Positions 17,401-57,135 of a stretch of DNA of 64,000 nucleotides are shown here, piece after piece (within the stretch, counting starts at the first letter, position 1; each line of letters begins with the position of its first letter). Under the pieces are notes generated by a model. The model had not been told where the DNA came from. It worked only from the letters and a program-made list of their open reading frames with translations, and ran no database searches. The DNA is from Hormiphora californensis (taxonomy: Eukaryota > Animalia > Ctenophora). Location of the stretch: positions 2,046,001 through 2,110,000 of the forward strand of contig CM035352.1 of assembly GCA_020137815.1 (NCBI GenBank), given 5' to 3'. A program made the translations under genes and the position numbers.

Positions 17401-20362
17401 AGAGGAAGAAGAGGACTCGGATGAATATGTATATGAGGAAGGTGAAATCCTGGTGATTTCAGATAGTGAGGACTCTGAAGAGAAAGGAGAGATTTCGGAG
17501 GCAGAGAGTGAAGGAGAGGTGAAAATAAATGAGAATCTGAATGTGGAGGTTCTGACACAGAATGTGGAGGTTCGTGAAGAAGAGCCCAGGTACACTTTCA
17601 ACGGGAAGTATCTTCCCTCCCCCACCTCCAAGGCAGATGACCTATGCCGAGTTTCGATCGCTCGCGATAGAAGCCGAGTGGCAGGAGGCGCTGGCACATG
17701 CCATGCGTATTCCTGATATGAGTGAATACTGAATTTTAGAATTTGACTTTTTATTTGAGATTTTATTGTAAGACGTGTAATGTAAAAACAACTGTATAAT
17801 GTATATTTTCACTTTCACTCTAACCCATGTAAAAACTGCTGTTTTAATTTTTCATAACGCTTCATTGGAGCTATTATACAGTCGGACCCTGATTTATCGG
17901 GATGCTCGGGGTAAAGGATTTTGCCCGGTTAATCGGGATACCCGGTATATAATCGGGGTGACCGGTATATTGGGGTGATATACCGTTAATTTCCTAATTA
18001 GGGGGACTGCATATCACGTGGTTGTGTAGTAGCTGTGGTTAGCTGCCCCCTCTCATGCAAAAGGTCCTAGATTCAAATCTCGGTCAGTGTCCCGACCAGT
18101 GTGTGACTGTAGCGGGTAGCCTTACGGTTGTGCTGTCTGGCGCCGAGACCCCACCTGAGCGCACTGTCTCGCGCTCAGATTATTTGAGAATCAAACGGGG
18201 TATGGCGCCGCCATACAGCGTTTGTGTGACAATAATCGGACGATGGGAGGTAAAGTTCTTGTCATAACTCCGTACCTTCTGTTTTCAGATGCACTATCAA
18301 GAGCTGATGCCGATATATTTTCCTCGCAACAGTACTGACTACATCTACCAATCCGTGTTACCAGCTGGGTGCAACTGGGGTGCATACGGGGAACCCATGA
18401 GAACAGGCCAGGACGGTTACATTCGTGCACAGTGTGAGTTACAATGGGTGTGAAGCAGCCAGGTGTGTGTAGCTGTTTTTTGTAACACGTTCTCTATCAT
18501 TATAGGGAGTACATCAGAAAAGTCTCTAGCGAGGACCCTCAAAATTACTCGAACTGACTTCGCCACAATGCGTGATGACCCAGACAGTGCCCGTCAACTC
18601 GACCAGGAACCTGACATGTAAGGGAGCTTTTAGTTGTACACCGGGGTGCTGCAGGAGAGAGGGTCCCTGTAATTCTATAGAATCAGATAGCGCTACCTGA
18701 GATCTAGCTCTATGTGTTCTAATGTTATTTCCGTTTTTCAGTTACAGCCAGCTGTTAAAGTGGGCCCGAACTGAAGACCTGACCCGGGTAGCAATGTGTC
18801 GGGCTGTTTACCAGAGTGGGTACAACACTAACGGACAGGCTATTGTTATTGTTGTTGGACAGCACTTTCCCATTCACCTCCCCCTTCACATTGTGGAATC
18901 TTATTATGTACAGGTTAGTACTTTTGAAACGTACAATAATTTAAATTTGATGTATTTTAGATGCGAGACTTTTGTGCTATAGCTGAAGAGCAGCCATGAT
19001 TGCACGCACGGCTCTGATCGTTTTACATCTCTCTAAATTTGTAGTACCTACTGTCGGACCCCGATTTAGTCGCAGGAATTGTTTCCCCCGATATAGGAAG
19101 TTAACATTATTTGAACCCGATTTAGTGGCACCCCGATTTAGTGGCAGGATTTTTCCCCTGCCCTATCTGGCGCCGCGACCCATCTGAGCGCACTGTCGAT
19201 TTGAGAATCAAATGGGGTATGGCGCCGCTCATACAGCCCCTGCCCGGGTGAATGCAAGTCTGCTCCTTCATAAAACTTTCATCTCACGCTTCGTTGATTC
19301 AACAGAGGAAATGATAAACACACATTGTGGCGCGCAATTACTCGCTGATAACACTTCCCACTATCACCTGAAACCACTTTGGGCGCCCTAAAGCCATGCC
19401 ATTGCTATGAAGTGGTAGAACGTCTTCCAAGCATGAAACTATTGTCACACTAGTGACTCGAGTTGAGATGCGGTTAAAGTTGAAGCACTTGGTAACCAAC
19501 TGTGGTCTACTAAGCAACTGCCTTGGTTGCCATAGCAACTGTCTTGGTTACCATAGCAACTGTTTTGGTTACCATAGCAACTGACTTAGTTACCTTAGTA
19601 ACCAACATCACATCAGCCAAAAAATGCTTTTTGAGCAATGAGCACAAAATTCATCAGGAAATTCAGTTTTGAAGCTTATTCATCAATCTTAAATCAATTT
19701 GTGGCAGGGAAACACCGCATTATGAATACATAATGCAATAATTCTTGTTTCTCCCGAGGATGCCACTAAATCGGGGTCCGACTGTACATTCTTGAATGTT
19801 GAGAGCTGTTGAGAGCTGAAGACTCCAGAAAGGAGAGACCCGCAGTATAGTGAGAAGATAATTACCAGCTCACAATTATACATCTTCAGGTGCTGGATTC
19901 GATCACAACAAAACCCTACTGCCTCGTGTATTTCCACACATGTTGCACGGGGAGAAGACGAGATTTAGAGTTCCTCCAGAGACTACTTAACAACTGTCCA
20001 TCAAGATACCAGAGTAACCTTACTAATGTGTATAGTGTACACGCTTCAACAATACATAAGGTTGGTTAATTTTCATGTGTCCAAATATGAACAGATCAAC
20101 TGCCAACTGCCGCCGACCCCGGACCCGATCTGAGATTTGAGATTCAAAACAGGGTCTCATGGCGACGCCAGACAGAGTCTGTAAATGTAATCCACCTGTT
20201 TAACATCCCATATTATCCCAGTTGCAATCGTGGATGCTATTTCTGAAGTTAAAGGATTTGAGGAAGAGGACTACGGAGTTGAAAACACTGGATATGTTAT
20301 TTAAATCTCTTCCGAGAGAGCAACTTCAGATACCCTCGTTCATTATTGACTATGAAGTATAG
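14431..20362 (+). CDS. GDAP2: Ganglioside-induced differentiation-associated protein 2 homolog (macro domain + CRAL-TRIO/BNIP2 domain), 12 coding exons
   Basis: Exons 14431-14521, 14772-14858, 14964-15194, 15329-15380, 15591-15692, 15760-15848, 16141-16220, 18289-18433, 18506-18617, 18742-18913, 19890-20060, 20222-20362, all GT-AG and phase-compatible. Motifs INVEDINCWG, LNSKIAVWCG, GPKYTTKY, KGYP...NIALR, YQELMPIYFPR, ARTEDL...AVYQSG, YCLVYFHT and QIPSFIIDYE parallel GDAP2. Confidence 0.92.
16431..16940. mobile_element. Hairpin-bounded non-autonomous element (Helentron/HINE-like) with two ~153-bp internal direct repeats
   Basis: Hairpin GGTCGC-GCA-GCGACC within 16431-16465 and hairpin GCATCCTATT...TCGC-GGA-GCGA...AATAGGATGC at 16907-16940. 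AAAGACCTGGCTGCAAG...GGAAAATACCCGC is repeated at ~16512 and ~16664. Confidence 0.45.
17006..17716 (+). CDS. Intronless 236-aa ORF nested in GDAP2 intron 7: N-terminal membrane anchor and highly acidic tail
   Basis: ATG 17006 MLSLRSKLFLATCTAGAAALAIWWAYRRE, then a D/E-rich region. Open for 711 nt and followed by AT-rich UTR-like DNA. GDAP2 is complete without it. Confidence 0.65.
   Translation: MLSLRSKLFLATCTAGAAALAIWWAYRREDKDEPKDDLTITEIEKSKEIIEDTALVEDVAEFTETEEVTMMEDEIDMPGSEGEDDIDMSGSEEGEDVGGMSRGQSMLSLSTSTTLCNSRDRMMGSMGLIIEEEEEEDSDEYVYEEGEILVISDSEDSEEKGEISEAESEGEVKINENLNVEVLTQNVEVREEEPRYTFNGKYLPSPTSKADDLCRVSIARDRSRVAGGAGTCHAYS
18133..18218. mobile_element. Short MITE family CTGTCTGGCG...CGCCA(G/T)ACAG
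   Basis: Related copies at ~10838-10907, 19165-19236, 20105-20175, 20919-21243, 21330-21430 and 63372-63454. Confidence 0.7.
19505..19602. promoter_or_regulatory. 21-bp tandem array of RFX X-box-like motifs in GDAP2 intron 10
   Basis: GTTGCCATAGCAAC (19526), GTTACCATAGCAAC (19547, 19568), GTTACCTTAGTAAC (19589) and a degenerate copy at 19505. Matches the X-box consensus; function not shown. Confidence 0.4.
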
Positions 20363-24900: not shown

Positions 24901-27900
24901 AGCCCTACCTGGTAGATCGCGGTAGACCCCAGTCCCTCAGCCCCTGTCAGGCCAATGCTCTGGCCACAGTTCTCGCGCGCTCCTTATTTGAGAGAAATGA
25001 GAATATGGTCATGTCAGGCCAATGCTCTGACAGCTCGGCCCCTTATAGCAGTCCTACCTGGTAGTATTTCCCCGGTATGAGGTTCAACACACTGGCATGT
25101 GAAGGCAGTATAGCATTGCATCAGTTTGTAGGCGCCATCCTTCCCACACTCAGATCGGTAACAATTTTCAGGGTACTCAAACCGATCTAACAGGGAGTTG
25201 GGAGTGTTGGGAGTGTCTCATTATATCGACTCGATAACCGACATAATTCTGTAATAATCATTGTAATAATCATATCCAAAATAAACATACGGATCAGGGT
25301 CTAATGATAATATATAATTACATGATACAGATAAGTTAAACTTATCATTTAATGATACTGTCCCATCTTTCGACTTTCCGTATGTTTAATCAGGCTATGA
25401 AGCTATGGGGTAAATAATATGATATTGATATGATGAAACGAAATTTACTCACATAGATCTGGATTAAATATCGGAGGGCAAGCCTCATCTCTATCGACCT
25501 GGCAGCTTGTCCTTGTGTCCAAATTGTATCCACATATCATCTCAGAAAACTAAATGGAGTGAGGCGTTAATTATTCGTGAGTGATGAGGTGTTAATTACG
25601 TATCGATTAAGTGTTAATTAAGTATTAATTAGATGCTAATTAGATGCTTGTTATAATGTACCTCAGTAAATGTCCGGAAGGTGTTAGGTATGTTTCTACC
25701 ACTGTCCACAAACACACAGAAACACACGTCCCCTGAACACTGCCGAGGGTAGAAGTTCCCCACAGGGTCACAGCTCAGCGTCGTCTAAAGAGGGAATCCA
25801 TGGTTACCACAACTTGAATATGTATCCATAGTTACCACAACACGAATCTGTATCCATGGTTACCACAACACGAATCTGCAATCATGGTTACCATGCCATC
25901 TCTCCTAGTTACCTGGGCCTGGCAGGGTGTGGGAGGGTTAGTGGGTATAACCTCTATATGACCCTCCTCGTCACACACATATCGTCCTTTGTTGCCGAAC
26001 GAGTTAGGAAGTATTGCACCCGACCTATAAATAGTAACATGGATTATAATAACGAGTGGGAGGGTGGAGTTGTAATTTGTTTAGGGATCTACATCTCTGA
26101 GGTAACCTTCTAAAATAGGCACCACGTTTTATTGGGCAAACCTGACATTTGAACAAACCAACATTATCTACAATCTTGATCTACCGAACCCTCACAGAGC
26201 ACGTTCTCTTTGTAAAATATAGTGCGGTGTGAGTCGACCTGACACAAATCAATGCACACTTACGTAACGTTTACACAGAAGCATGTATCATCTTTACGGC
26301 ACTGGTTGGGTGCAAAGTTTCCATTGTCAGCGCATTCCAGGACCCTGGCACACTCTTGTTCGGTTGATGGAAGGACTAGTCCATCTCTATACTGATTTGG
26401 ACACACCCTCTGGTTGTGTCTGGAATATGGAGTTTGGAAAAAAGAAGGAAATAGGTTATATCAACCTTATAACAATAATAATGTGATTCCACTTGGTTAC
26501 GAAATGACCCTTCGCGCCGGCAAGGGAGGGGTAACTTCGTTACCCAAGTTCTAGTACCTGGTACAGAGAGAACGATCATCAAACTTGAGTTCACAATAGG
26601 GCATGGAACCACTCTGCTCTGTTCCGAAGATTGGGAATCCAGAGTCAGCATAGACACAGTAACAGACCCCACTTGAGCAGTCGGGGGTGGGGTACCATCC
26701 CTCCTCTGTGCATTTCTCAACTCCCTCCAGCTACAAATAGTAGTGTTATAAAGGGGGAACAAGAGGGGAGATGGGGAGGGAGAGAAGAAGAGGTGGAGCA
26801 GTCGGGGGTGGGGTACCATCCCTCCTCTGTGCACTTCTCAACTCCCTCCAGCTACAAATAGTAGTGTTATAAAAGGGGGAACAAAGAGGGGAGACGGGGA
26901 GGGAGAGAAGAAGAGGGGGAGCAGTCGGGGGTGGGGTACCATCCCTCCTCTGTGCACTTCTCCACTCCCTCCAGCTACAAATAGTAGTGTTATAAAGGGG
27001 GAACAAAGAGGGGAGAATAGCGGAGAACTGTATGAGAACTGAGAAGGGGGGGGGGAGGGGGTAAAAAGGAGGGAGGGTGTGAGTAGTGGGAAAACTGTGA
27101 ATTTCAAGGTGACCCACTTCTCTGGGCACTACAACTCTGGCTACTACAATTCTGGCTACTACAACTCTGGCTAGTAGCCACAGTTGTACACAACTCTGGC
27201 TACTAGGAGTGCATCTCTGGCTACCAAACGACCCCGCCTATGTATGCAACAGAACACCGACTCATTAGGTGATAGGTAGCTAGGTACACACTACGACGCA
27301 TTAATATACACGAGTTAGGTAATAGGTTATTGGTTTGCTGGATAAAGTACTGATAAGTTGAGAACATGGTGATTGCTTCCAGGCCAACCCCAAGGAATCG
27401 AATCCCGCCACTACAGCAACCTCCGCACCTAACAACACCAAGAGCTCTGACAACAACAGCGGAAAGACCGAGACCCTCCGTCGGCCGTCTACTAAGATAG
27501 TAAACGTGGACAGCGGATACTCGCCAGAAACGATGACTGATGCAAATGTCACATAGCTGTTACAGTTGTACTTCCGGGTAACATCACGTGATTAATGTAC
27601 TTCCGGGCCAGCCAAACGGAGTACATAGCGCGACGATTAATGTACTTCCGGGCCAGCCAAACGCAACGGTCTGTCAATTGCCCAATTACTTTTTATCTCC
27701 TCTCGCTCGATTTTCTGGAGAAAGGATATAAGGTCTAAATCCTCACTATAACCCCAAATTAGTGTGAGGCTCCCTCCGAAGTTCTTGGTACCCCAAGTCT
27801 CGTCTTCTCCATTCTCCTGTCCGAGGACTGCTGACCTGTCTTTGGTACAGGTACCGAGGCGAAGTTCGATCGTAGCGCTTCCTTCTTAGTTTGTCTAGAA

Positions 27901-30900
27901 TGACCAAGTCCAGTTTTAAGCCTGGATGGGGTTTTGTCTGTCGTATGTGAAATCCCAGAGAAATATGTTAGTAGCTCGTTCTCATCTCAAGCACGGTTCT
28001 GCATAGTTGGCTTCCACCCACTTTGATTCAGCAGGGAATCCGTAGTCATTGCACATTCCCCAGTGTGTTGTAGGGCGGCAGCAGAGACGGGCACAGCTAC
28101 AGCTACTCGATTCGTGTCTGTGCTGTCTAGTCTCCGTTGGAGAGTTTCGCGCGAATACGTTTGGATTGTTCCACCCGACTCGTTGTGTTCGTTAAAGATT
28201 ACGCACTTCCAGTCCACTTCCTTGCTCTTTCTCTTATGGCAGCTTTGATCCAGTTCGTGCGAAGGGCTTGATCCTGGGCAGCAAATAAATCGGTTCGGTA
28301 TATTGTGAGGCTTCTATTTTGTTGAGCCAGGCCCAGGTCGAAATCCAGGGTGTCCATTCCCCCTTCTCAGTCTGCGTTCAGGATCTGCCATGTAACACTT
28401 TGTCTTCCATTTCTCTACAAGTTCCGCCTCTAATCTTTTCCCTTCAGGGATTCTGCGTCTTCTGGAAGGTCCAGTTAGCATATCCTCAGTCTGCATTCGC
28501 GTGTGGAGGGCACGTATCCTGGGGGTCCGTAGGAAGTGTGAAGAATGTCACGAGTCCTTGTCTCTCCTTGCACAATGGAAATCTTCAATCCGCTGGAGGC
28601 CCTTCCTCCCAGTTTCATGCTGACATAAGTCGGTCAACGTCACGTTGTTTCTGATGACTCCTCTTCTCAGGATCTTCCTAGAGTAATCATATCTAGTCCA
28701 CTGGCTTCGGAAGTGGACCAGTCCAGTATTCCGGCACCGTAAGTATCACAGGTATTGCCCCAGTGGTGATTGCAGGATGAGGGGTTCTTGCCTTGCAGGT
28801 CGAGGAACAACAGTTCTTGACTCTTCCGAGTGTTATTCTATTTTGACCTTAGCTTTCATTTTCTTGATGTAGAATGCGGTCAACCTCCAGGATGCCGAGA
28901 CGGGGTGGGGGGTACTTATAGCATCCATCTGCCACCTCGGGTATTCTGTCTCCACTCGGTAGGCTTATTCCCTGCATCCGACTTCTGACTCCATCTACTA
29001 TGTATAGGGCTCCGATTTGGAAGACCAAAGGACATGTTGATGTCAGTGCTAAATTCTCAGGGACTGCCAAGAGTGTGGAGGTCATCTTTTTGAGCTGGCA
29101 TACAGGCTTAAGGTCGTCCAGGTATAGGCGGTGGTTAATCTAATATCGGATCTAGAGCTTTTGGGTAGATATGGTGTAGCCCTTCCTTGGTTAGTTAGGG
29201 AGATGGACAAGGGGACAAGCCGAAAATAAAGGAATCGGGAGACGGCGTCTCTTGGGAAGAGGCCCTCTCTTAGTGTATTGGGCACAGGAAGAGAGAAGCG
29301 ACGGAGAGAGAGAGAGAGAGAGAGGAGACGAGATGAGAGACGAAGCGAGAGCGAGCGGCTGCGCGATGAGAGCTGTTAGCGGCGAGCGCGCGAGCGCGAG
29401 CGAGAGCGCGCGCGCGCGGCGCGGCGCGCGCGAGCGCGCGAGCGCGCAGCGCGCGCGAGATGCAGGGGTAGGCCCACCCACAGCGGAGAAAAAGGGCAAA
29501 GGAACGAAAGCGGAACAAAGAGAGAGCAGAGAGAGCGAGAGCCCGAGCGAGACGAGAGAGAAGAGCGAGAGAGAGATGAGAGAGAGAGAGAGAGCGAGAG
29601 AGAGAGAGAGAGGTATGATAAGAAACAAGAAAAAAACAAAAACAAAAACCTAATAAATGGAACAAGTAGTTTAATATAATTATCAGACTGATACTCTCTC
29701 TCTCTCTCCTTCTCTCGCCTCTTCTTCTTCCTTCCATCTCTCTCTCTCTCTCTCTCTCTCCTCTCTCTCTTCTCTCTCTCTTTCTCTCTCTTTCTCTTTC
29801 TCTCTCTCTCAGGTAGTATATATAAACCACAGTAAACCACAGTTAAAATCAATTCAATTCTCGTTCAGCAACATCGACTATCCTCTTCGTACATTATGCA
29901 ATTCAAACACCCTGACACTGGTCTCCGACCTTTGAGTTTGTTATGCGCAATTTGCCAGGACGCTATTGATAATGTTGAAACCCCGCTCGCGGTTACCATT
30001 TGTAACCATTACTTTTGTGCAACTTGTTTGTTGCAATGGCTGTTGGTTCGGAGTGAGACGTCCAACTGTCCCTACTGCCGAACGAAGGTCAATCGCATCC
30101 GACTGGTTAGTTTCTTTTCTCAGTAAACAAAAGTAATTGTTTAGTAATTTGCAGTTAAGTTTGATTTTTTTTGATAAAGCAAACCGCCTGTACATTTTCA
30201 CGTATCGCGCGCTACCAAGTTCAATTCATGCTTTAAGGCAGCGGATTACGGGGGCCACTATCGGTTTGCTTTCTAAATCAGATTTGATTTATTCATTTCT
30301 ATCATTGCTCCCATCTTCAGGCGAGCTATGGGAAGTACCCTCATTGCACGGACGCGGGGAAGCTTCGTTTAATAAATGCTTATAGTTTTGAAAGAGTGAA
30401 TGGTACATTTGGGATTATTAGAGAGCTTGAAGAGGGAGAGTTTGAAGAGGGAGTTTATGGTACCCATGGTTAGAGTTGATGACACCATTCACCTCACCTC
30501 TAGATGTGGGCGGCGTGGTGTCACCTGACTACTACCATCGGAGGTGGTTACAGGCTATTAGAGAGAATAGAGATGAAGTCGGAGCAGATGTGTTGCATAG
30601 TATATACGAGGGAGAGAGAGTGTTCAATGAGGGCGAGAGAGAGAATGAGATAGGGAGCGAGAGTGAGCGAGATGTTGAGATGGTAGAGACAGACCAGAGT
30701 GAACAGCTGAGTGATACTGAGGATGAACAATTGAGTGATAGTGATGGAGAGAGTGTTATATTATTGTTATTATTATTATTATTATCATTATTATTCTATG
30801 GATTTCTTCCACAAAAAAAAATCTTGCATTCGTGTTCTTTGTTTGACGCAAACACACACACACACACAACAACTGTAACAGCTATGTGACATTTGCATCA

Positions 30901-33900
30901 GTCACGTGTTCAACTGTAACAGTCACGTGACCTGACTGTTTCAAAGGGGTTGAAATTCACAGTTTTCCCACTACTGGTGTGGACTGTGGATAGGAACATA
31001 AATCATTGTTCTAGGTTTGGTGATCCTACCTCGCATTTCGTTTTCTCCCTGATAATAATCAGCTCCTTGTCTCCATCTTCATTACAGGTAAATGTCCCCT
31101 TCGCTCCACTCGTCTCATGTTTCAAATCCCCCGTTCTCGGGTTGATGCACGTGCAAGTATCACCCTCACACTCCATCTTCCTGAAGTTACCCTCCCCATC
31201 ACACTCCTTATCCCACACACACCCCGGTAACATGTCAAAGGAGTTGGTAATGTCGAAATAGTATAACCGACACGCCTCCTCTTTCGCCCTCTGACAGTGG
31301 CCACGGGTGTCAAACTGCCTACTGCAAGCCGTACTTCCCCGAGTCATGGTGCCGGCTATTATTTTCCCCGTATCAACATACACACAGGCACAGAATCTAC
31401 CAAAGCACTGAGTTTCTCGATAGTAGTTCCCATCGCAACGCAACTGGTATTGGGACCTACACCTCTGAGGGAGGGAGTGAGACGTTGTATTGGGAGCAAC
31501 TGGTATTGGGACCTACACCTCTGAGGGAGGGAGTGAGACGTTGTATTGGGGGCAACTGGTATTGGGACCTACACCTCTGAGGGAGTGATCAGACGTTGTA
31601 TAATTGGGGGCAATTAAAAACTTTAAACTCTCTCTCTCTCTCTTGTGCACTTACTGATTTCCTGAGGGCCACATCACAGTGGACCTGGAAGGAGAGTCCG
31701 GTAGATCCAGGTATCCGGGTACCTGTATCTGAATCCAAACACCAACACACCTCCCCACTACACTGCTTAGACTCATACCTGTCGTTATAGTGTTGCACGT
31801 TAGTGTTGCACGTTAGTGTTGCACGTTAGTGTTGCACGTTTTATTAAGATCATACAGGCCAGGTGAATCAATGCATAATCATACTACTATTCATGATGAA
31901 ACTAACTGATACCAATTGTTTCTGTATTACCGTTCATCAGAGAGGCATTTGAGGGAGTTTAAACAGCCGTCTTTGAATCTCCACTCACTAGTTTGGGAGT
32001 TGAACTCCCTCTTACACTTGTTGAACAACTCTACAATACAGTTTCCTGGCGGGGGAATGTACTGGGGAGATTCAAGATTACAAATAAAACTGCGTGTGCC
32101 GTGCACAAAATACTAAATAAGGTACAATTAATTATCCTATACCTCTATCATCCTTGATCCTGGGACACAAGTGGTCCGGTGTGTCCTCCGAGAAGGGAAT
32201 GTACAGCCCGCTATCTGTATACACACACTGACTAACACCTCCAATAACCTGGGGATGTGTGTAACCATTTAGATGCAAATACTCAGGTGTAACCAATTAG
32301 ATGTAACGGCAACATTGTTACCGTGGTTACCATTGTTACCGTGGTTACCATGGTTACCATGGTTATTGGTTACCATACATCACGTAGGGTGCGCTCACCA
32401 CAACTGTTATACCTGATACGCATAGAAGCCTCCTGTATAATCACACTCAAGGATGTTCTGTTGGAGGCAGGCAGTGGGTGGTTGGCACTGACTCTTAGTG
32501 GCAGTGTTGTTGTCGTGACAGGTGAGCTGGCACTCTGGGCCCATTGAACCTGATACCATTGTACCATCGGACCGGTGTATACACCTGACAGAGAAAATTA
32601 ATCAGACTGTCCCTGACAGAAAGAGTTTACAAGACGCATATATCCCAAAAGTTTCTTAGAGATAAGGAGGTCAAAGTGGGAAAGTTTCTTATAGATTATG
32701 AGGTCAAAGTGGGAAAGTTTCTTAGAGATAAGGAGGTCAAAGTGGGAAAGTTTCTTAGAGATAAGGAGGTCAAAGTGGGAAAGTTTCTTAGAGATAAGGA
32801 GGTCAAAATGGGAAAGTTTCTTAGAGATAAGGAGGTCAAAATGGAAAAGCTTCTTAGAGATAAGGAGGTCAAAGTGGGTAAGTTTCTTAGAGATAAGGAG
32901 GTCAAAGTGGGACAAGTTTCTTAGAGATAAGGAGGTCAAAGTGGGAAAGTTTCTTGGAGATTAGGAGGTCAAAGTGGGAAAGTTTCTTAGAGATAAGGAG
33001 GTCAAAATGGGAAAGTTTCTTAGAGATAAGGAGGTCAAATTGGGAAAGTTTCTTAGAGATTAGCAGGTCAAAATAGGAAAGTTTCTTAGAGATAAAGAGG
33101 TCAAAGTGGGAAAGTTTCTTAGAGATTAGGAGGTCAAAGTGGGAAAGTTTCTTAGAGATTAGGAGGTCAAAGTGGGGCAAGTTTCTTAGAGATCAGGAGG
33201 TCAAAGTGGGAAAGTTTCTTAGAGATAAGGAGGTCTAAGTGGGAAAGTTTCTTAGAGATAAGGAGGTCAAAGTGAGAAAGTTTCTAAGAGATTGGAAGGT
33301 TAAAATGGGAAAGTTTCTTGGAGATTAGGAGGTCAAAGTGGGAAAATTTCTTAGAGATAAGGAGGTCAAAGTGGGAAAGTTTCTTAGAGATTAGGAGGTC
33401 AAAGTGGGAAAGTTTCTTAGAGATAAGGAGGTCAAAGTGGGAAATTTTCTTAGAGATAAGGAGGTCAAAGTGGGAAAGTTTCTTAGAGATTAGGAAGTCA
33501 AAGTGGGAAAGTTTCTTAGAGATAAGGAGGTCAAAGTGGGAAAGTTTCTTAGATATTAGGAGGTCAAAGTGGGAAAGTTTCTTAGAGATAAGGAGGTCAA
33601 AGTGGGAAATTTTCTTAGAGATAAGGAGGTCAAAGTGGGAAAGTTTCTTAGAGATTAGGAGGTCAAAGTGGGAAAGTTTCTTAGAGATAAGGAGGTCAAA
33701 GTGGGAAAGTTTCTTAGAGATTAGGAGGTCAAAGTGGGGCAAGTTTCTTATTATAATAGTAGAGTCGATAACTACATCGACCTCTCCCAATTGTTCCAGT
33801 TTTTGTCACATCTGTTTGGAGCCTCGACACGACCTCTAAACAGGTGTTACTTTTTCACAAACTGTTTTCATCTTGGTGTAATCAGCAGTTGAAATGTTGC

Positions 33901-36900
33901 TAATCATAACAAAAACCTGACTAAATTTTTTCAACTTGGGGTAAAACCATGGGTGTCAAAAGTTAGCTCTAAGTCCCCTGAGTAACCATCCGGAGACTCT
34001 AAGAGATATTTCAAGCCGTTCTCCTGTAATCATTAATCCCGGTAGAGCACATATTTGAGTATGGACGTACGTGCAATTGCCTACAACCTCAACTTTAATG
34101 TATAACGTTAATGTGCGTCTCTCTCTTTTCTCCCCCTTGAGAAAGAGTTATCTCGCGCGGCGCAACCGCACGTGCGGTTTTTCCAGAGAGAGTGAGAGAC
34201 ATACAATAACATGTAAACAGCCTGCCAGCGCTCACGTACGTCCGCATTGTATTTTTTTCTCCACCGGGATTAATGATTACGGGAGAACGGCTTGAAATAT
34301 CTCTTAGAGTCTCCGGATGGTTACTCAGGGGACCTAGAGCTAACTTTTGACACCCATGGTTTTACCCCAAGTTGAAAAAATTTAGTCAGGTTTTTGTTAT
34401 GATTAGCAACATTTCAACTGCTGATTACACCAAGATGAAAACAGTTTGTGAAAAAGTAACACCTGTTTAGAGGTCGTGTCGAGGCTCCAAACAGATGTGA
34501 CAAAAACTGGAACAATTGGGAGAGGTCGATGTAGTTATCGACTCTACTATTAGAGATCAGGAGGTCAAAGTGGGAAAGTTTCTTAGAGATTGGGAGGTTA
34601 AAATGGGAAAGTTTCTTGGAGATTAGGAGGTCAAAGTGGGAAAGTTTCTTAGAGATTGGGAGGTTAAAATGGGAAAGTTTCTTGGAGATTAGGAGGTCAA
34701 AGTGGGAAAGTTTCTTAAAGATAAGGAGGTCAAATTGGGAAAGTTTCTTAGAGATAAGGAGGTCAAAGTGGGAAATTTTTTAAAGAGATTAGGAGGTCAA
34801 AGTGGGAAAGTTTCTTAGAGATAAGGAGGTCAAAGTGGGAAAGTTTCTTAGAGATTAGGAGGTCAAAGTGGGAAAGTTTCTTAGAGATTTAAAGGAGGTC
34901 AAAGTGGGAAAGTTTCTTAGAGATTAGGAGGTCAAAGTGGGAAAGTTCCTTAGAGATAGGGAGGTCAAAGTGGGAAAGTTCATTGTTCAGACTGTCTGCC
35001 CTGGGTAACACAAGGAGAGAGATAATCCAAGAATAAACTCAGCAAGGTTCCTGTTGAAATTACCCCCCACACATACCAGCACAGTTCAGGGCTGGGGCAC
35101 ACTTTTGAGATGTATTTCCCATCAACAGGATCACACTTGTATTCCATACAGTTCTTATTGTCATAAACCCACGTGTTCAGCTCCCTGTTAAACCACACAC
35201 CACACACGTCCACACGCCTCTGCTGGCAGTGCGTGTAGACCACCTGGAAACAAACGGGATGTTAGCATGTATACCATCTAAAGAAACAGGAGGGTGGTAG
35301 ACCAACTAGAAAGAGTGGTGATGATTGTTGATCATCTCGCTAGTCGATCAGGATCACTCACAGCATATAATCAGTATACAGCATGATTTCTGTCAGCTAC
35401 ACATGAGCTAGTCGATCAGGACTTTTCTCTCTCACAACATATTACAGCATGTCCTAAAAATATTACCTGTTCCCCATCCTCCGTACACCAAAAGGAGTGT
35501 TTCACGCTCTGAGTGTTGGGTATTTGGACGCCACTCGTTACGTTGGTGCACCAGCATCTAGCTGTACTGTTATCGCAGTTCATGGGGAAGAATAGTCCGT
35601 CCGACCGGCAGCTGCAACAAGGGTTATATGTTAAATTCTCTGCATGATAATACAATGTATTGTTTAATTTATATTAATAGATTCAATAGACCCAGCTAAT
35701 GTCTAAAACCCAGCTAATGTCTAAAACCGAGTTTTGAAAAATGAAAACAGCCTTGGGCACATCACACTCCTCTAAATTCCCGTTATAGCGAGGTGCCTAT
35801 AAAAGATACAGAAATATCTCTCATGCTCACAGCCCGATGGTTCATCTCTTGTACTAACCTGATGGGCACACAGTTGGCCTCTTTCCGTATGGTGCTGGTA
35901 CCGGGGATAATGGACTTGGGACAGGCGTTGTACGAGCTTATCTGGCATTGTGTCCTGTTCTCCTTTACTCTGGGACAACTTCCTGGAACAGGCGTTTGTG
36001 TAACCATAGAAACCATGTGTCTGTGTAACCATAGAAACCATGTGAGTGTAACCAAGTGTGTGTAACTATAGTAACCATAGTAACCATGTGTGTGAATTGT
36101 GTAACCATAGTAACCTGTGTACCTGGATAAAAGATGCTCTCCGTATTCTCCATGATATCGCCTGTGTCATAAAACACACAGAAACAGAAGGCAGCATTGC
36201 ATTGAGTCGACTGGAAATGGCCGCTCTCATCGCATGTTAGAGTCTCCTGTTGCTTGCACGGTGTCATGGCCCTCCGGACCCCTTCCTCGTCACACCAATA
36301 CTCACCCCGACTAGAGAGGGAGGGATAGATAGAATTAAAAAGTTGGTTCACCCCGACTAGAGGGGGAGGGATATAGAATTAGAAAGTTGGTTCACCCCGA
36401 CTAGAGAGGGAGGGATAGATAGAATTAGAAAGTTGGTTCACCCCGAATAGAGAGGGAGGGAGATAGAATTAGAAAGTTGGTTCACCCCGACTAGAGAGGG
36501 AGGGAGATAGAAATAGAAAGTTGGTTCACCCCGACTAGATATAGTGGGAGACATCTGTTGATTATTATTCAGTGCACAATAGTCAGAGCATGCAGGCTCT
36601 TTTCTGAACAGAAGATTCTTAGGAAAGTTCAGAAAGTTCCGAAAGGATCCCCATATAATCTCATCCCATTATAATATTCTTTCCCCTCTTGTCTATTCAT
36701 AATTATCGACAAGAAAGAACATCAAAATGGTAGGTTAATAATCTCGTGTGGGGTGCTATCCTTGTTTTGTTCAAACGGGAGAGAGGGTCGAGCAAGGCAA
36801 CCTACCCATGAGCTTAATTAACAGCTCAGAAATAGTGAGCACGCTTACTTGAATGCCCGGTTATCGGTGAATTGCCCAAATCGAGGGTCAACGCAGTGGC

Positions 36901-39900
36901 ACAGTCCATGGCCATTTTCACATTGAACTCTCGTGTAGTTACCTGTTTGGAAGAAGTTATATGATAAACCACCTGATCCAATGAAGAATTCTATTCGGAA
37001 GGAGAGTCTCGCGGCATATGTCTGACTACATGGTTCGGAATATGCCGCGAGACTCTAACCGATCTCCTTACCATCACTCCGCGGCAGGCAACACCTCAAT
37101 CCTATTCGGAATGATTTCTACTCCAAATGGAAAAAAACAGAGTATTGTCCTCGAAAAACTTTTGTAATTACACCCGAAATATAGTAACCATTAGTTACAA
37201 ATGGTTACCGTTGGTTACCACTCTATAATATTTACCGTTAGACTGGCATGTGGGAACACTGCAGCCACTCTCATTCTCCCCACAGCCCGCATCCTCCTCC
37301 TTCTGGCACCCCGTCCTATTATCATATTGGAATGGGCATTCTGCCAGGTCAGCACTCACTGAGGAGAGAGTGAATTCTCACGGGGGGAATATGAAAAAAG
37401 GCTGAAGAAAGAGACTATCATGATCGTTCCGCACCGATATCCCATCACGATTATATCGGGACTAGGGAAAGAAAATATTATTATATGCATTATTATTCAT
37501 AAAATAGGAAACATAAATCAATTATTATATCGTTATTTACTTTGTAAATGTGGGACGATGCACCTGCAGAATTTTCGTGCAGATATAATCCCTTGAATAA
37601 TATTGGTTACGAAGTCACCCCTATTATTGCATATAGGGGTGACAATACCGCCTACCTAAAAATGAAAATTTACAGGACCTTCTCATGAAAAGTTATCGAA
37701 AACTTGTCTAAAACCTATCTAAAACGTATGGTACTAGTTTGTATAGTAACCAGGACCTGAATTCTACAGAAAGTAACGACCGGTAGCGATTCCACCACAT
37801 GTTTAACAACAGAGGTGTGTCGCATAACTCCTTATATGGGCATAAAATTCCAATCTTGTGGAATTTATTCTGACTCGACTATAGCTTAGTTATCAATGAA
37901 TCCACCTCTAATACCTTTGGAATGGCATTTTGCACATTTCTGAAGCTTTTTGTAGCCAAATTCCAGCATCTTCATAGTTTTCCAAAAACAAAAACAGTGT
38001 TAATGGCCAAAATATCGAAAAATTCTGGTATGTAATGGTAGCTCAGACAATTTCCTCGGTATGTTCAAAAAATTAGAACTTTCTGTTTTGTAGTTTGGAC
38101 ACAGGAATTTTTTTCCCGCCGTACAAGCGATATTATTACCCCTCCGTGAGCTAGCGCAGAGGGGTAATTTCATTACCAATGAATAATATAGGTTTCAAGT
38201 ATGTGAGGACACATGATATTATCATTGATAAACAGATGTACAAATTAATAATCGATATTATATTAATATAAAAACAAAAGTTGAAACACTCACCTCTTGT
38301 CATTACAGCTCCGTTATCAGCAAACACGCACACACAACCTCCATCACTGCCACACTGCCGCGGTATGAACCTTCCATAGATATCACACTCCATAACCTCC
38401 TGTCCTCTACACTCGGTCATCTGCAGTTTCTTACCCTCCCTGGTACACACAAAGGTACCCTCGCGACCCTGGGTCCGGGGGATAGCCTGCCCCGTTGTTA
38501 CATTGACACAGGAGCACTGTTGTGAGGTGAAACAGTGTAGTGGGACAAACTCCCCCACCTCTGTACATGGTACACATGATTTGGGATTGTTATTGTTAGA
38601 GCTGCATGAGTTAGTATCCCACTGTAGCTGACATGTCGTCCTATCATCCAACCTCTCCTTACACTCATCACCATGGTTACCCTGGTTACCATGGTTACCA
38701 TCACCCTGGTTACCCTGGTTACCATGGATTCTAGCTCCACTATCTTTATACACACACCAGCACTCCTTTCCATCACACTGGGTGTTGTTGTAGTGGCCCT
38801 CCGCTGTACAAGATGCCTGTGTATCTAGATGACAGGGCGTCTGTACCATCCTTCCCTCATCATCACACAGGAACCTTCCAAATCCACTGTGAGTGACGTC
38901 ATCACTGTGTGTGACGTCACCAGTAATGGGATGGACACAGTGACACACAGCACCTGTACACTGCCGTCTTACAAACATCCCATCTGCCGTGCACTGGACA
39001 TGACACTCTCCAGGCCTGTCTAGAGTTCTGGTCTGGTTGTTGATCACGCTCGGGCATGCCACATCACGTGATCTCTCACATTTGCTCCTGGTATCCTTTC
39101 TAGGGGTACACCCTGTACTGTTCACACTATACACAGCACCACTATCGGTATACACACAGTAGGCTAGACCATTTGGTGTTTGCTGGACAGGTTCAAAGAG
39201 CCCGGTGATATTGTCACACTCCAAAAGGGTCTGGTTAACACGACATGCAGTCAGCACGTATACACGTCCCTCTTGGGTACACGAGAAGGGCAGAGAAGGG
39301 TCTACTGGGGTGTCTGTCACAACTCCTGTTGTCATGTCAACGCAATAACACTCCTCACCACTGCATTGTTTGGGATGAAACATCCCCTCACTGGTACACT
39401 GAACAACACAACCCTGATCTCCATGACATCCGTCTCCATGACACACATCTCCATGACACTCGTCTTGCTTCTTCTCGCACCTACTCCTCAAATCATAGGA
39501 AGCGGAACAATCCGAATCACGGAGGTTGATCTTGCCTGAATCAACATATACACACACCATCTCACCATCAGCAGTCTGCTGCCGGGGTAGGAACAAGCCC
39601 TTCTCATCACACTTCAAGGCGGTCTGATTCTGACACCCTGTGGACGGAATAACTTCACCAGCTACCGTGCAGTAGAACGCATCATGGGAAATAGTGGGAG
39701 CGATAGCAGAACCAGTCTTGACGTCCACGCAGAAACAAATGTCCTGACCAATACATTGGCGGGCCTGGTAGAACCCTGTGTTGGTACAAAACTTATCCGA
39801 GTAATCTTTGTCACAGTTGAACAGCTCAAAATCTCCCTTCTTGTTGCACACATGGCCTGGTGTCCGGTGACACAAGGACCGTGGGTCAGCATCTTTAGAA

Positions 39901-42513
39901 CAGGCTGGGTTGGGGTAACCGGTGTCACGATACACACACCCTCCTTTCTGCTTCACCAAGAACTCCTTGCCAGTACACTTTAGGGAATCCTGATCCCTAC
40001 ATCCCTGATCACCGGGTACAAGTTCTCCCTTACTGCTACAGGTGAGTTGATGCGTTATATCCAGTTTTCGAGGAGAGGTGGATGTTAGTTTTCCGGTCAT
40101 GGGGTGAACACAAAAACACACGCCCCCAGGGAGGCATTGGAGGGGTAAAAACCTTCCCGTGGCATCATCACAAGCTAGCGGGGAGCACTCCTTTCCATCA
40201 CTTCCACTACACAGTGTTTCTCTCTGTTTCTGACACGGTTTGTGGGAGGTTGATATCAGCCCCTGCTCGCACTCCTTTGCTCCCCGTGACCCCGGTACTT
40301 TCTCCCCTGTATCTGCGTAAACGCAGTAACACGGGGAACTTTTAGGGCACACCCGTGATTGAAACACTCCCTCCTTTGTACAAGGGAGGCGTGTCTGGCG
40401 CTGACAAGGAGTAAGGGGTGTCGGTTCAAAGCTGGCACCGCATCTGTGTGTGCCCTTTTCCCAGGGCTCCCCCAGGACCTCTCCCGTTCCCTGGTTCACG
40501 CACACACAGGTCCTGTCCTTACTACATCGCTCAGCTAGGTAGCCACCATCTGTATCACAGAAGGAAGGACAAGAAGAGGTGAATCCAACCAATTCATCCC
40601 ATTTCATTGGACATTCTTTCTCCCATTGTACCTGACACGGGGACCTCTTGTCCAGTAGCATGCGACAAGTAGGTAGCCCATAAACTGATTCAGTACCCCT
40701 GACCTCAGCCCCGGTGTCATAATAAAGACAGGTACAGTATTGGAAGGAACACTTGAGAGGTGAGAACCAGTGTCCCGGATCATCAGCACACAGAGGACAC
40801 TCGTAGCACTTCTCACAACACGTCTTATCACAGGTATGGTTGTTGTTAACCTCTACCTGTACTCCCATATCGTCACAGTAAGAGGCAGTCAGGTTGGTGG
40901 TGTAGAGGGTGGTACTAGTAGTTGTGTTCACACAGGAACACGTGTTGTCATCACAACGGAGCTCGTGAGATCCTGGGGAGGGAATTTAATTAGGAATCTA
41001 ATTACGGGCATTTTCTATAACTATATTATAGCAGTAGATATCACATGTCTGTCTGTCTGTATATAATATCTGTCATGTCCATCTGTATTATATTTGTCCC
41101 AGTCTACTTCTACAGCGGGTAAAGTCTGCCAGTTAACTTACCACACTCGGCAACATCAGAGGTGAGGACCCCATTGCTGCCCTCCTTCTCACACATACAA
41201 TCCTCGTCACTACAGTACATTAGGAAACACCGATCTATGTTACAATGTGACTCTTCACGTGCTGCAGTGGTTACTCTGGTCTCACTAGTTCCATTTGTAG
41301 GAGGGTGGGTGGTTGTAGTAGTGTTTCCTGGGGTGGTATTAGTGCTGCTAACGTTCCGGTTATCAGATGTTGGTGTTGTAGTCGGCCCTGCTGGCACGGT
41401 TCTATTTCCTTCTTTCCCCGCAGTAACTACCTCGTTTATACCAGTGGTAACTTCCTCTTCTTCAGAGGCCCCTCCCTCCTCCTGAGTTGTCCCTTTCACC
41501 CAGGCTGGTTCCGTGGGTGTTGTTGTTGCTCTCTTCTCCACTGGTTCAGCGGCAGTTGTGACTTCTTGTTCAGCGGCAGTTGTAACTTCTTGTTCAGAGG
41601 CAGTTGTGACTTCTTGTACAGCGGCAGTTGTAACTTCTTGTTCAGAGGCAGTTGTGACTTCTTGTTCAGAGGCAGTTGTAACTTCTTGTCCAGCGGCAGT
41701 TGTGACTTCTTGTCCAGCGGCAGTTGTAACTTCTTGTCCAGCGGCAGTTGTAACTTCTTGTCCAGCGGCAGTTGTAACTTCTTGTACAGCGGCAGTTGTA
41801 ACTTCTTGTCCAGCGGCAGTTGTAACTTCTTGTCCAGCGGCAGTTGTAACTTCTTGTCCAGCGGCAGTTGTGACTTCTTGTTCAGAGGCAGTTGTAACTT
41901 CTTGTCCAGCGGCAGTTGTAACTTCTTGTTCAGCGGCAGTTGTAACTTCTTGTCCAGCGGCAGTTGTGACTTCTTGTCCAGCGGCAGTTGTAACTTCTTG
42001 TACAGTGGCAGTTGTAACTTCTTGTCCAGCGGCAGTTGTGACTTCTTGTACTGTGTTTGTTGTTGCTGTTTCTTTCTCCCCCGCTCCTTCAGCGGCAGTT
42101 GTAACTTCTCCTTCAGCGGCAGATTTCACTTCTTCTATCCAGTCCAGAACCTCCGTAGCATGAACGACATTATTATTGATCCAAACGGTCCAGTTATCTG
42201 TCTCATCTATTTCCTCAGTCCCAATTTCATTAGACAGCTCCTCTGGAGAGAATGGCCTGCCGATCTGAACCACATTCGCAGGGGAGGATGTAAATGTACT
42301 CCCAGCTAGGCCCAACCTGAGGGGAAAAGGGGGCTTGTTTTGAATTTAGATCATAATAATATCTTCTTTCCTAACCAAAGAAAGAGAGGCCCCTCACCCA
42401 AACAAGTTCCTAACCCAGACCGCCACGTGGCCTAAATATTACTACTCTAGATTCTAGAGTCTAGAACACACTCACCAGAAAGCGAGAACCCACCAACGAT
42501 TGCCTCTCACCAT
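21907..42513 (-). CDS. Giant secreted thyroglobulin type-1 repeat protein: signal peptide, mucin-like stalk, at least 25 TY repeats, VWC domain, C-terminal tail
   Basis: Exon 1 (42513-42476) + exon 2 (42316-41142) give MVRGNRWWVLAFWLGLAGS... and EVTTAAGQ repeats. The 2.7-kb exon 40972-38294 has 13 CxCV..TG motifs. Many further Cys-rich exons (QCNIRTKECWCVDEQG, QCHKQQCWCVDPFNG). VWC-like CYYQGKFYRHGEEFDMGC...CPDP...DPCCKVYAC at 22817-22449. Last exon ends TGA at 21907. No TM helix seen. Confidence 0.85.
22198..22340. mobile_element. Small MITE with ~20-bp TIR
   Basis: GGGTCCGCACAGACTGATCA ... TGATCAGTCTGTGCGGGTCC. Confidence 0.6.
23889..23989. mobile_element. hAT-type MITE with 8-bp TSD
   Basis: TIR CAGGAACCGACCGA/TCGGTCGGTTCCTG and TSD CTGTACTG (23881-88, 23990-97). 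A truncated copy lies at 23203-23305. Confidence 0.88.
26675..27016 (-). repeat. 3 x ~122-bp tandem repeat spanning a splice acceptor
   Basis: Each unit is a pyrimidine tract + TTTGTAG + the first 56 nt of the LEGVEKCTEEGWYPTPDC exon. Confidence 0.9.
27760..29280 (-). pseudogene. Decayed R4/Dong-like non-LTR retrotransposon (RT and C-terminal REL region)
   Basis: Across shifted frames: INHRLYLDDLK, CYKY...LGILE, RDVDRL...LGG, TWAWLNK, FAAQDQALRTNWIKA, IFLWDF. Many frameshifts and stops. Confidence 0.75.
29896..30126 (+). CDS. C3HC4 RING-finger ORF carried inside the Polinton-type element; possibly the first exon of a longer spliced gene
   Basis: CAIC...CNHYFCATCLLQW...CPYCR with all eight ligands intact. 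Candidate GTTAGT donor at 30106. Confidence 0.75.
   Translation: MQFKHPDTGLRPLSLLCAICQDAIDNVETPLAVTICNHYFCATCLLQWLLVRSETSNCPYCRTKVNRIRLVSFFSQ
31441..31587 (-). repeat. ~2.6 x 56-bp tandem repeat spanning a splice acceptor
   Basis: Unit = CTCCCTCAG + the first 24 nt of the exon RCRSQYQL. Confidence 0.9.
32648..34980. repeat. ~30-bp intronic minisatellite (GGGAAAGTTTCTTAGAGATAAGGAGGTCAAAGT-type), split by a foldback insertion
   Basis: Dozens of units at 32648-33750 and 34551-34980. Confidence 0.97.
33754..34552. mobile_element. 0.8-kb foldback element with ~294-bp arms inserted at a TTA of the minisatellite (PIF/Harbinger-like target)
   Basis: TAATAGTAGAGTCGATAAC... / ...GTTATCGACTCTACTATTA. 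Arms 33754-34047 and 34259-34552. The satellite resumes in register. Confidence 0.88.
36303..36539 (-). repeat. 5+ x 44-46-bp tandem repeat spanning a splice acceptor
   Basis: Minus-strand unit AACCAACTTTCTAATTCTATCTATCCCTCCCTCTCTAG|TCGGGGTG. Confidence 0.92.
37614..38170. mobile_element. Hairpin-bounded HINE/Helentron-like element
   Basis: Hairpins GTCACCCCTA...TAGGGGTGAC (37614-37643) and ATTACCCCTC...GAGGGGTAAT (38135-38168). Confidence 0.45.
41543..42055 (-). repeat. Coding 24-bp tandem repeat (EVTTAAGQ), mucin-like O-glycosylated stalk
   Basis: About 21 in-frame units in exon 2 of the TY-repeat gene. Confidence 0.95.
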
Positions 42514-54340: not shown

Positions 54341-55623
54341 ACCCGGAACTTTTGGGGGGAAAGCCAATTTCATCACCAATTGGTAGTCCAATGGGTACTT
54401 GATCACCAAAAAAAAGTTTCAATCTCAATTTTTAGGGGAAGTCACCTAAATTGGGCCTAATTGATTACAGGGTAATTACATGGTAAACCCAAACCGTAAA
54501 TCAACTTAGGAATGGAGTTAAGTAAAAAACAAGGGCACTAAAATGTGTAGCGTCTTCGCATTAGTGGGGTAGGTGCCGGAATTAAGTCTCTATCTCATCT
54601 GGTTAATGAGATAATTGGATAATTAGGTCAGCGCATAGCCGTTTTGGCCATATATGGCTATAGCCATGTTAGGAAAGGAGTAGAGACAAAACCGAGGGCA
54701 CTAAGATGATCAGCGTCCTCGAGTTAGTGGGGGTAGGTGCTAAAAGTAAGTCTCTATCTCATCTGGTTAATTAGATAATTGGATAATTAGGTGTGAAAAT
54801 AACCGTTTTTGGATGTATGGCTATAGCCACTTAGGAATGGTTTAGAGAATTTTCACTGGTGCCATCTTGTAGGAAATGGCCAAGTTATGGGGGGTCTATG
54901 TCGGACTTTTAAGCTCTATCTTCAACCGTTTAGCTGTTATTTGGCTTTAAAAGTGGTTAAATGGACAAAAAATGAGCAAAAAACGCACTAATTACCCCTT
55001 TTTTTGCCCATTTCAGCACCAAATAACGGCTAAACGGTTGAAGATAGAGTTTAAAAGTCCGACATAGACCCCCCATAACTTGGCCATTTCCTACAAGATG
55101 GCACCAGTGAAAAGTCTCTAAACCATTCCTAAGTGGCTATAGCCATACATCCAAAAACGGTTATTTTCACACCTAATTATCCAATTATCTAATTAACCAG
55201 ATGAGATAGAGACTTAGTTTTAGCACCTACCCCCACTAACTCGAGGACGCTGATCATCTTAGTGCCCTCGGTTTTGTCTCTACTCCTTTCCCAACATGGC
55301 TATAGCCATATATGGCCAAAACGGCTATGCGCTGATCTAATTATCCAATTATCTCATTAACCAGATGTGATAGAGACTTAATTCCGGCACCTACCCCCAC
55401 TAATGCGAAGACGCTACACATTTTAGTACCCTTGTTTTTTACTTAACTCCATTCCTAAGTTGATTTACGGTTTGGGTTTACCATGTAATTACCCTGTAAC
55501 CAATTAGGCCCAATTTAGGTGACTTCCCCTGAAAATTGAGATTGAAACTTTTTTTTGGTGATCAAGTACCCCTTGGACTACCAATTGGTGAAGAAATTGG
55601 CTTTCCCCCCAAAAGTTCCGGGT
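54341..55623. mobile_element. 1.3-kb foldback (about 600-bp arms, ~75-bp spacer), core of a larger diverged TIR element
   Basis: ACCCGGAACTTTTGGGGGGAAAGCC... / ...GGCTTTCCCCCCAAAAGTTCCGGGT. Outer remnant GTTTCAAGCGACTTGACC (~54236) pairs with GGTCAAGTCGTTTGAAAC (~56117). Confidence 0.88.
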
Positions 55624-55651
55624 TCATCCCAAATAATACATGAATTCCATA

Positions 55652-55943
55652 GGGATCCCTAAAAAAGTTCAGTATTTACACAGAGTTTACACAGTCTTTA
55701 CTCAGTCGTTACACCCAGAGCGCCCGCGCCGCTCTGGGTGTAACGACTGCGTCTTTCGCACTCGATTTGCAGCGTTTTCGGAAACTTTTTTCGCCGCAGC
55801 GCTCAATTTTGTCAATTGTGCAGCACACAATCCAATATTTTCTTGGAAAAAGCCACTGTGCGCAGCACGCGCCGCTCTGGGTGTAACGACTGAGTAAAGA
55901 CTGTGTAAACTCTGTGTAAATACTGAACTTTTTTAGGGATCCC
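55652..55943. mobile_element. 292-bp MITE with ~70-bp perfect TIRs, TA TSD
   Basis: GGGATCCCTAAAAAAGTTCAGTATTTACACAG... and its reverse complement, in the context TCCA-TA...TA-TGGA. Confidence 0.9.
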
Positions 55944-57020: not shown

Positions 57021-57135
57021 AACGAAAATCCGGTTTAGTGGGGAAAATGGGGGGGTGCGCGGCGTCGTTTTTCGATTTGCGCGTCGGAGCGCGCTGCACG
57101 TTTTGTAGATTTTGAAAATTTTTGTCGATTTCGAA

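What the first reader, a model, noticed from the sequence alone, without database searches (positions are those of the whole stretch)
27082..30975. Miniature Polinton/Maverick-ended element carrying an intact RING-finger gene inside a host intron
Seen: 26-bp perfect TIRs starting AGTAGT, a 6-bp TSD GGTGTG, a second inner 36-bp inverted repeat, an intact C3HC4 RING ORF (29896-30126) antisense to the host gene, and an acidic ORF (30476-30760) that may be a later exon. Known: AG-repeat termini with a 6-bp TSD are the signature of Polintons, which normally span 15-20 kb and encode pPolB, integrase and capsids. None of these genes is present here. Inference: a non-autonomous, cargo-carrying satellite of a Polinton (about 2 kb without the nested LINE) that spreads a putative E3 ligase.
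Basis: partly seen in the sequence, partly recalled or inferred. Interest (0 to 1): 0.8.

Follow-up and report, generated by a model that had tools for sequence, protein, structure and literature searches.

The report
Polinton-ended mini-element carrying a RING gene
A 3.9-kb insertion in an intron has the end sequences and 6-base footprint of virus-like Polinton transposons but none of their genes, so it is likely moved by a Polinton elsewhere in the genome; it carries a RING-finger gene predicted to encode a ubiquitin ligase, related copies exist, and this copy is likely damaged.

Summary
27082-30975 has perfect 26-bp terminal inverted repeats with (AGT)2..(ACT)2 ends, a 6-bp target duplication, a second perfect 36-bp inverted pair and a complete C3HC4 RING ORF. 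It lies antisense in a small intron of a thyroglobulin-repeat gene. No Polinton core gene is present. Short-read contigs show the right end joined to this flank in two samples and to other flanks in one; RING depth is about 1-5 times the host exon. So it is a small mobile family.

That second frame is broken in the window copy but continuous in other copies. The LINE piece looks error-laden, and its junctions are unverified. Selection on the RING is not shown (5 nonsynonymous, 3 synonymous changes). No autonomous partner could be sought because no genome is held, and expression is untested.

Best reading: a non-autonomous Polinton derivative with a RING cargo gene, mobilised in trans (0.6). 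It is a new variant of a known kind. Interest 0.45.

The parts
27076..27081 (.). left target-site duplication (6 bp)
27082..27107 (+). left terminal inverted repeat, 26 bp, (AGT)2 start
27108..27533 (.). 426-bp segment between the two matched parts of the left arm; holds a 15-bp tandem block (27120-27205) of a very abundant repeat that also occurs elsewhere without the TIR
   Evidence: (bin depth about 160-180 times the host exon; X5 record 9 matches 27112-27195 inside a 596-base contig)
27534..27569 (+). inner inverted repeat, left arm (36 bp, perfect)
27570..27663 (-). three CCGGAAGT motifs and a CACGTG box (ETS-like and E-box-like; labels recalled), with a 29-bp direct repeat
   Evidence: (3 of 4 such motifs in the 64-kb window lie here)
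27740..29285 (-). fragment of a non-LTR retrotransposon (RT C-half, thumb, zinc knuckle, restriction-like endonuclease motifs in order; R4/Dong-like by recalled motifs); many frame breaks; boundaries approximate
   Evidence: motif order; no Pfam, PDB or homologue hit; multi-copy family, no exact single-copy contig among the 16 pieces shown, zero cover 27701-27852
29819..29868 (+). TATA-like box (29819-29826) and an in-frame candidate acceptor (AG 29867-29868) upstream of the RING ATG
29896..30126 (+). C3HC4 RING ORF, 76 aa; candidate phase-0 donor at 30106
30106..30320 (+). predicted intron of the cargo gene
   Evidence: donor and acceptor both phase 0; 4 of the 12 indel rows shown fall here, none in the RING exon
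30321..30473 (+). frame A: 50 aa after the acceptor, no ATG of its own, no known family
30430..30470 (+). frame break of the window copy between frames A and B (mutation or assembly error); other copies run through
30446..30889 (+). frame B: conserved core, then acidic stretch (36% D/E), then (TAT)n at 30759-30795
   Evidence: core depth 13-24 times the host exon
30869..30904 (-). inner inverted repeat, right arm
30950..30975 (-). right terminal inverted repeat, 26 bp
   Evidence: contigs branch exactly at 30975
30976..30981 (.). right target-site duplication
31030..31430 (-). host exon upstream of the intron (thyroglobulin type-1 repeats); upper boundary approximate
26551..26730 (-). host exon downstream of the intron; its acceptor and first codons are triplicated in a 123-bp tandem repeat (26675-27016)

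Best explanation
This is one insertion of a small multi-copy element with Polinton/Maverick ends and no mobility genes, likely copied and inserted by the polymerase and integrase of a full Polinton elsewhere, and it carries a likely two-exon RING-plus-acidic-tail gene predicted to encode a ubiquitin ligase that is likely disabled in this copy. Shown: ends, TSD, lack of core genes, other insertion flanks, presence of this junction in two samples, intact RING exon, frame break. Inferred: mobilisation in trans (a retroviral-type integrase would make the 6-bp TSD), splicing from 30106 to 30321, E3 activity, and later arrival of the LINE piece. It sits antisense in an intron, 54 bases from the host donor, so it would be spliced out of the host message.
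For: Ends and TSD equal the (AGT)2//(ACT)2 plus 6-bp signature given for Mavericks in PMC8097293. Contigs branch exactly at 30975, and two X1 contigs continue into other sequence there (loose ends, agreement 0.67). The RING contig in X1 is 5 times host-exon depth, 1.1 times in X5 and 2-3 times in X6. The junction to this flank is in X1 and X5, two samples (records 8 and 15; 30 element bases each). Donor and acceptor are both phase 0 and frame A has no ATG. Indels of other copies fall in the predicted intron, none in the RING exon (12 of 14 rows shown). In near copies and in one more distant X5 contig, frames A and B are continuous, the distant one with conservative and silent changes (read by eye; frame arithmetic). 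The RING aligns best to RNF4 among solved structures, E=5e-11, and keeps the Ile, Trp, Pro and post-Cys Arg that bind E2~ubiquitin (roles recalled).
Against: No autonomous partner was seen: no genome held, 0 TIR matches in viral, metagenome and prokaryote collections. The matched ends are short (26+36 bp, interrupted) for a Polinton (long TIRs recalled). TSDs of the other insertions could not be checked. RING changes between copies are 5 nonsynonymous and 3 synonymous of 8 shown, against 77% nonsynonymous expected at random: no clear purifying selection (40 of 89 rows visible). The parts differ widely in depth (RING 1-5 times, frame B core 13-24 times, 15-bp block about 160-180 times), so the element is a mosaic and the RING form is a minority. 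Contig depth is only a rough guide. The RING ORF also has its own stop and could be a last exon or a one-exon gene.
Confidence: 0.6

Rival explanations
1. The mobile unit is Polinton-derived, but the RING is a passively captured host fragment (Pack-type cargo) that drifts and does nothing for the element.
For: RING changes look close to neutral; RING depth is far below that of frame B and is near single-copy in X5; no close relative of the RING anywhere.
Against: None of the 8 changes shown hits a zinc ligand, no indel is listed in the RING exon, and the frame downstream of a matching acceptor is kept open in other copies. The numbers are too small to decide.
Confidence: 0.2
2. It is a non-autonomous element of a cut-and-paste family that also makes 6-bp TSDs (hAT6, IS3EU), not of a Polinton.
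For: Both families make 6-bp TSDs (PMC12730594); short TIRs and subterminal tandem repeats fit cut-and-paste elements; no Polinton was seen.
Against: IS3EU ends are TAYGG..CCRTA and hAT ends begin CA or TA (recalled); the ends here are (AGT)2..(ACT)2, the Maverick motif.
Confidence: 0.1
3. It is an immobile relic: a full Polinton inserted here and later lost its core by deletion, and the other RING copies lie in full Polintons as an accessory gene.
For: Nematode Mavericks carry intron-bearing cargo genes near a TIR (bioRxiv 10.1101/2022.07.12.499685); frame B has many more relatives than the RING; no contig links the left and right halves in another copy.
Against: No trace of any core gene in 70 frames, although deletion relics usually keep some (inference); both arms and the TSD are perfect.
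Confidence: 0.08
4. The arrangement is an assembly artefact.
For: The LINE piece and the microsatellite tract look error-laden, and 27701-27852 has no cover in 2 of 2 runs.
Against: The right junction is in contigs of two samples, and an artefact would not make a TSD. At most the LINE and microsatellite middle is in doubt.
Confidence: 0.02

Closest known systems
Autonomous Polintons/Mavericks (PMC8097293, two passages read; PMC6431247, passages)
   Same: (AGT)2..(ACT)2 ends, terminal inverted repeats, perfect 6-bp TSD.
   Different: 3.9 kb; none of the conserved intronless core ORFs; short interrupted TIR; cargo gene likely has an intron.
Cargo-carrying nematode Mavericks (wasp, krma; bioRxiv 10.1101/2022.07.12.499685, passages read)
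   Same: Host-like, intron-bearing cargo gene next to a TIR.
   Different: There the cargo rides in complete or partial Mavericks and is a protease or kinase; here it is a RING gene in an element with no core genes. No horizontal transfer was tested here.
Non-autonomous Polinton derivatives (Kapitonov and Jurka 2006 and Repbase, recalled, paper not held; Tlr1 sometimes so viewed, PMC5499653, one passage)
   Same: Polinton ends without the replication genes; dependence on a helper.
   Different: No RING cargo in such an element turned up in four paper searches (search listings only). Repbase itself could not be searched.
RNF4 and other C3HC4 RING E3 ligases (PDB 4ap4, 4ppe)
   Same: All zinc ligands, same spacing, the short motif before the first cysteine is shared with RNF4.
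   Different: Only domain-level likeness (best single-domain library hits 43-53% identity); no SUMO-binding region seen; activity untested.

Membership tests
Polinton/Maverick (autonomous) | TIRs with (AG)3 or (AGT)2 end motif | tested here: met
Polinton/Maverick (autonomous) | perfect 6-bp TSD | tested here: met
   one insertion only
Polinton/Maverick (autonomous) | pPolB, integrase, ATPase, protease and capsid ORFs | tested here: not met
   69 of 70 frames without Pfam hit, the other is the RING; longest frame 190 aa and low-complexity
Polinton/Maverick (autonomous) | size of about 15-20 kb (recalled) | tested here: not met
   3894 bp
Non-autonomous Polinton | same TSD length and first 11 terminal bases as an autonomous element (Repbase rule, PMC4455052) | not testable with these tools
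   no genome held; 0 matches; only the first six bases match the published motif
Non-autonomous Polinton | several insertions with different flanks | tested here: met
   two X1 contigs leave 30975 into other sequence; this shows other right ends, not whole copies
Non-autonomous Polinton | other whole copies with own 6-bp TSD and the same cargo | not testable with these tools
   contigs too short to link the two ends
IS3EU | TAYGG..CCRTA ends with 6-bp TSD | tested here: not met
hAT6 | hAT-type ends (CA or TA start, recalled) with 6-bp TSD | tested here: not met
   ends begin AGT; 6-bp TSD of hAT6
C3HC4 RING E3 ligase | eight zinc ligands in RING spacing | tested here: met
C3HC4 RING E3 ligase | E2-dependent ubiquitin transfer | not testable with these tools
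   E2-binding residues present by alignment (roles recalled)
R4/Dong-clade LINE (nested piece) | RT followed by zinc knuckle and restriction-like endonuclease | tested here: inconclusive
   motifs in the expected order by eye; no database hit
R4/Dong-clade LINE (nested piece) | intact 3' end and own TSD of a fresh insertion | tested here: inconclusive
   motifs stop near 27750; 27701-27852 has no read cover

The most novel reading that the evidence does not exclude
A satellite family of miniature Polintons has dropped every viral gene but keeps a spliced RING-plus-acidic-tail ubiquitin ligase under selection, using it, as some DNA viruses use their RING proteins, to remove host silencing or defence proteins or to take over its helper Polinton.
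Probability: 0.25. Interest if true: 0.75.

Novelty: new variant of a known kind. Interest (0 to 1): 0.45.

Why it matters
If a helper is found, the element shows that about 60 matched terminal bases are enough for Polinton integration, which narrows the cis needs of a system never reconstituted in the lab (recalled). It would also add a ubiquitin ligase to the cargo that Polinton machinery spreads, here in an element with no viral genes. The weight is limited: non-autonomous Polintons and cargo-bearing Mavericks are known kinds, this scan's notes list many such elements (109 findings for 'Polinton non-autonomous'; unchecked), and this copy looks damaged.

Tried and rejected
Genome search: no genome held.

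TIR patterns: 0 matches in viral, metagenome and prokaryote contigs. The 15-bp repeat block: 0 in metagenome and viral contigs. These collections would rarely hold animal DNA, so the blanks say little.

RING homologues: 0 of 1 and 0 of 9 candidates. The library search gave 777 generic RING hits; none of the best 150 matched the element outside the RING exon at E below 0.01. Of 8 viral loci, 7 are RING-level matches at 33-37% identity, and the 11-residue exact match L008 lies inside a phage terminase-like ORF, so it is chance.

Expression: no RNA holder listed; run X8 covered neither the element nor the host exon, so it is uninformative.

The X5 'joint' 27107-27534 has the same depth (647.1) as the right-end contig and is that contig laid on the left arm, not a deletion allele. 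A high copy number for the left terminus was rejected: the estimate from X1 is not matched by X5. No structure or complex was predicted. Kapitonov and Jurka 2006 and Krupovic and Koonin 2015 were not held. The search for R4-clade papers gave 0.
Full report
Observation. The stretch 27082-30975 is bounded by perfect 26-bp inverted repeats that begin AGTAGT and by a duplicated GGTGTG. The TIR occurs twice in the window and never in 100 shuffles. A second perfect 36-bp inverted pair lies 426 bases inside the left TIR and 45 bases inside the right. The RING ORF 29896-30126 has all eight C3HC4 ligands and scores E=2e-10 on Pfam zf-RING_2. The other 69 of 70 frames of 35 aa or more have no Pfam hit. 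The window is eukaryotic DNA with introns; the organism was not determined.

Host context. The element lies in an intron of a minus-strand gene made of thyroglobulin type-1 repeats. The donor at 31029 is 54 bases from the element's end. The acceptor is triplicated in a 123-bp tandem repeat; only the copy at 26730 leads into a full repeat, and the intron would be 155-399 bp without the element.

Is it a family? No genome is held, so I laid contigs of public runs (6 of 8 listed runs hold part of the stretch, two samples). In one search (4 of the 8 runs), contigs branch exactly at 30975. One continues into this flank in X1 (485 bases, no difference) and in X5 (4 substitutions, one 3-base insertion); each has 30 element bases, one short of the tool's bridging rule. 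Two X1 contigs continue into unrelated sequence. Against the host exon, the RING is about 5 times deeper in X1, 1.1 times in X5 and 2-3 times in X6; the core of frame B is 13-24 times deeper. On the left (2 runs), 27160-27487 is 9-13 times in X1 and about 4 times in X5, and the 15-bp tandem block is about 160-180 times and occurs elsewhere without the TIR. Contig depth is only a rough guide and the tables are cut (20 of 83 and 12 of 111 loose ends shown). The reading is a low-copy RING-bearing mosaic built from parts of larger repeat families, with this insertion shared by two samples. Whole second copies and their TSDs were not seen.

The cargo gene. The RING ORF has a phase-0 donor at 30106. 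A good acceptor at 30320 opens a 50-aa frame (A) in phase 0 with no ATG of its own. Frame B, which ends in the acidic stretch, overlaps A in another frame. In the window copy A stops at 30473. Contigs of other copies differ in length between 30430 and 30470 and run from A into B, and a more distant X5 contig keeps the same frame with conservative and silent changes (loose end at 30466, read by eye). Four of the 12 indel rows shown fall in the predicted intron and none in the RING exon; some contigs have further indels in the acidic stretch. So the family likely encodes RING, a short unknown domain and an acidic tail, and the window copy is broken, by mutation or by assembly error. Against this, the RING ORF ends in its own stop after a short hydrophobic tail, as RNF4 does (recalled), and has an in-frame acceptor upstream, so it could be a last exon. 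The 8 RING substitutions shown are 5 nonsynonymous and 3 synonymous with none at a ligand; random change would give 77% nonsynonymous. Selection is neither shown nor excluded. The RING has no close relative; RNF4 is the best of 37 solved-structure matches.

The middle. About 27740-29285 carries, on the minus strand and in order, motifs I recall from R4/Dong-clade LINEs, spread over all three frames. No database confirmed this. The family is abundant in the reads, but none of the 16 pieces shown matches this stretch exactly at single-copy depth, and 27701-27852 has no cover in either run. The letters are probably long-read errors, and neither junction is verified.

Mechanism. Shown: a clean insertion with Maverick-type ends (PMC8097293, two passages), no mobility genes, other right-end flanks. 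Inferred: the ends are recognised by the integrase, and perhaps the protein-primed polymerase, of a full Polinton; the element is copied and inserted with a 6-bp stagger; intact copies would express a spliced RING ligase; this copy is tolerated because it is intronic and antisense. Other 6-bp families fit worse: IS3EU ends are TAYGG..CCRTA (PMC12730594, passages) and hAT ends differ (recalled). The Repbase rule for assigning non-autonomous elements needs an autonomous element with the same 11 terminal bases (PMC4455052, passages); this could not be tested.

Known and new. It fails membership as an autonomous Polinton and is a probable, unconfirmed non-autonomous one. Intron-bearing cargo in Mavericks is known from nematodes (bioRxiv 10.1101/2022.07.12.499685, passages). 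Non-autonomous Polintons are known (recalled; the 2006 paper is not held; one phrase search gave 1 paper). Four searches for Polinton plus RING or E3 gave 3, 2, 0 and 0 papers, none on this subject by title and abstract start. Repbase and supplements were not seen and may hold such elements. Notes from this scan list many Polinton-ended elements with other cargo and one Maverick gene with a RING; these are unchecked leads and only lower the surprise. No look-alike of this sequence was in the notes.

Verdict. Observation confirmed; interpretation partly supported. Non-autonomous Polinton derivative with a RING cargo gene, damaged in this copy: 0.6. New variant of a known kind. Interest 0.45; 0.75 if a selected, expressed ligase and a helper Polinton are shown (probability 0.25).

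Noticed in passing
window 26675-27016: A 123-bp tandem repeat triplicates a host splice acceptor and the first codons of the exon; the middle copy runs into a stop after 44 codons, so mis-splicing is possible.
   Followed up: partly
window 29868, loose end in X1: One contig has, just before the RING 5' region, a stretch resembling the acceptor and first codons of frame A (21 of 23 bases by eye), and depth over 29866-29970 exceeds the RING core: a rearranged relative may share this part in another frame.
   Followed up: no
window 27108-27244: Start of a very abundant repeat (about 160-180 times host depth in both samples) with 15-bp units and a partial reversed unit; family not identified.
   Followed up: partly
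window 16886-17716 (+): Intronless 276-aa frame with a hydrophobic N-terminal segment and a long acidic region, antisense inside the Ig-repeat gene region; only a sub-threshold Pfam hit.
   Followed up: no
window 251-13771 (-) and 25832-42345 (-): Exons of Ig-like repeat proteins (by eye) and a long thyroglobulin-repeat protein with a 944-aa frame (8 Pfam repeats) and a Thr/Ala/Glu-rich tandem region.
   Followed up: no
window 3276-4428, 33794-34512, 54406-55558, 55646-55949, 56151-57020: Several other inverted-repeat elements; 56151-57020 has 21-bp TIRs and an 8-bp TSD.
   Followed up: no
window 45581-46924 (+) and 57109-57954 (+): Open reverse-transcriptase frame (Pfam RVT_1) and an open C-terminal frame with zinc-knuckle and endonuclease-like motifs (recalled, CRE-like).
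   Followed up: no
window 51968-53162 (-): Exons of a coatomer beta-like gene (Pfam Adaptin_N; name recalled from motifs).
   Followed up: no
window 6880-8308 and 58571-60477: Homopolymer-rich, error-like sequence and a long (GGGAA)n tract, signs of unpolished long-read segments in this assembly.
   Followed up: no
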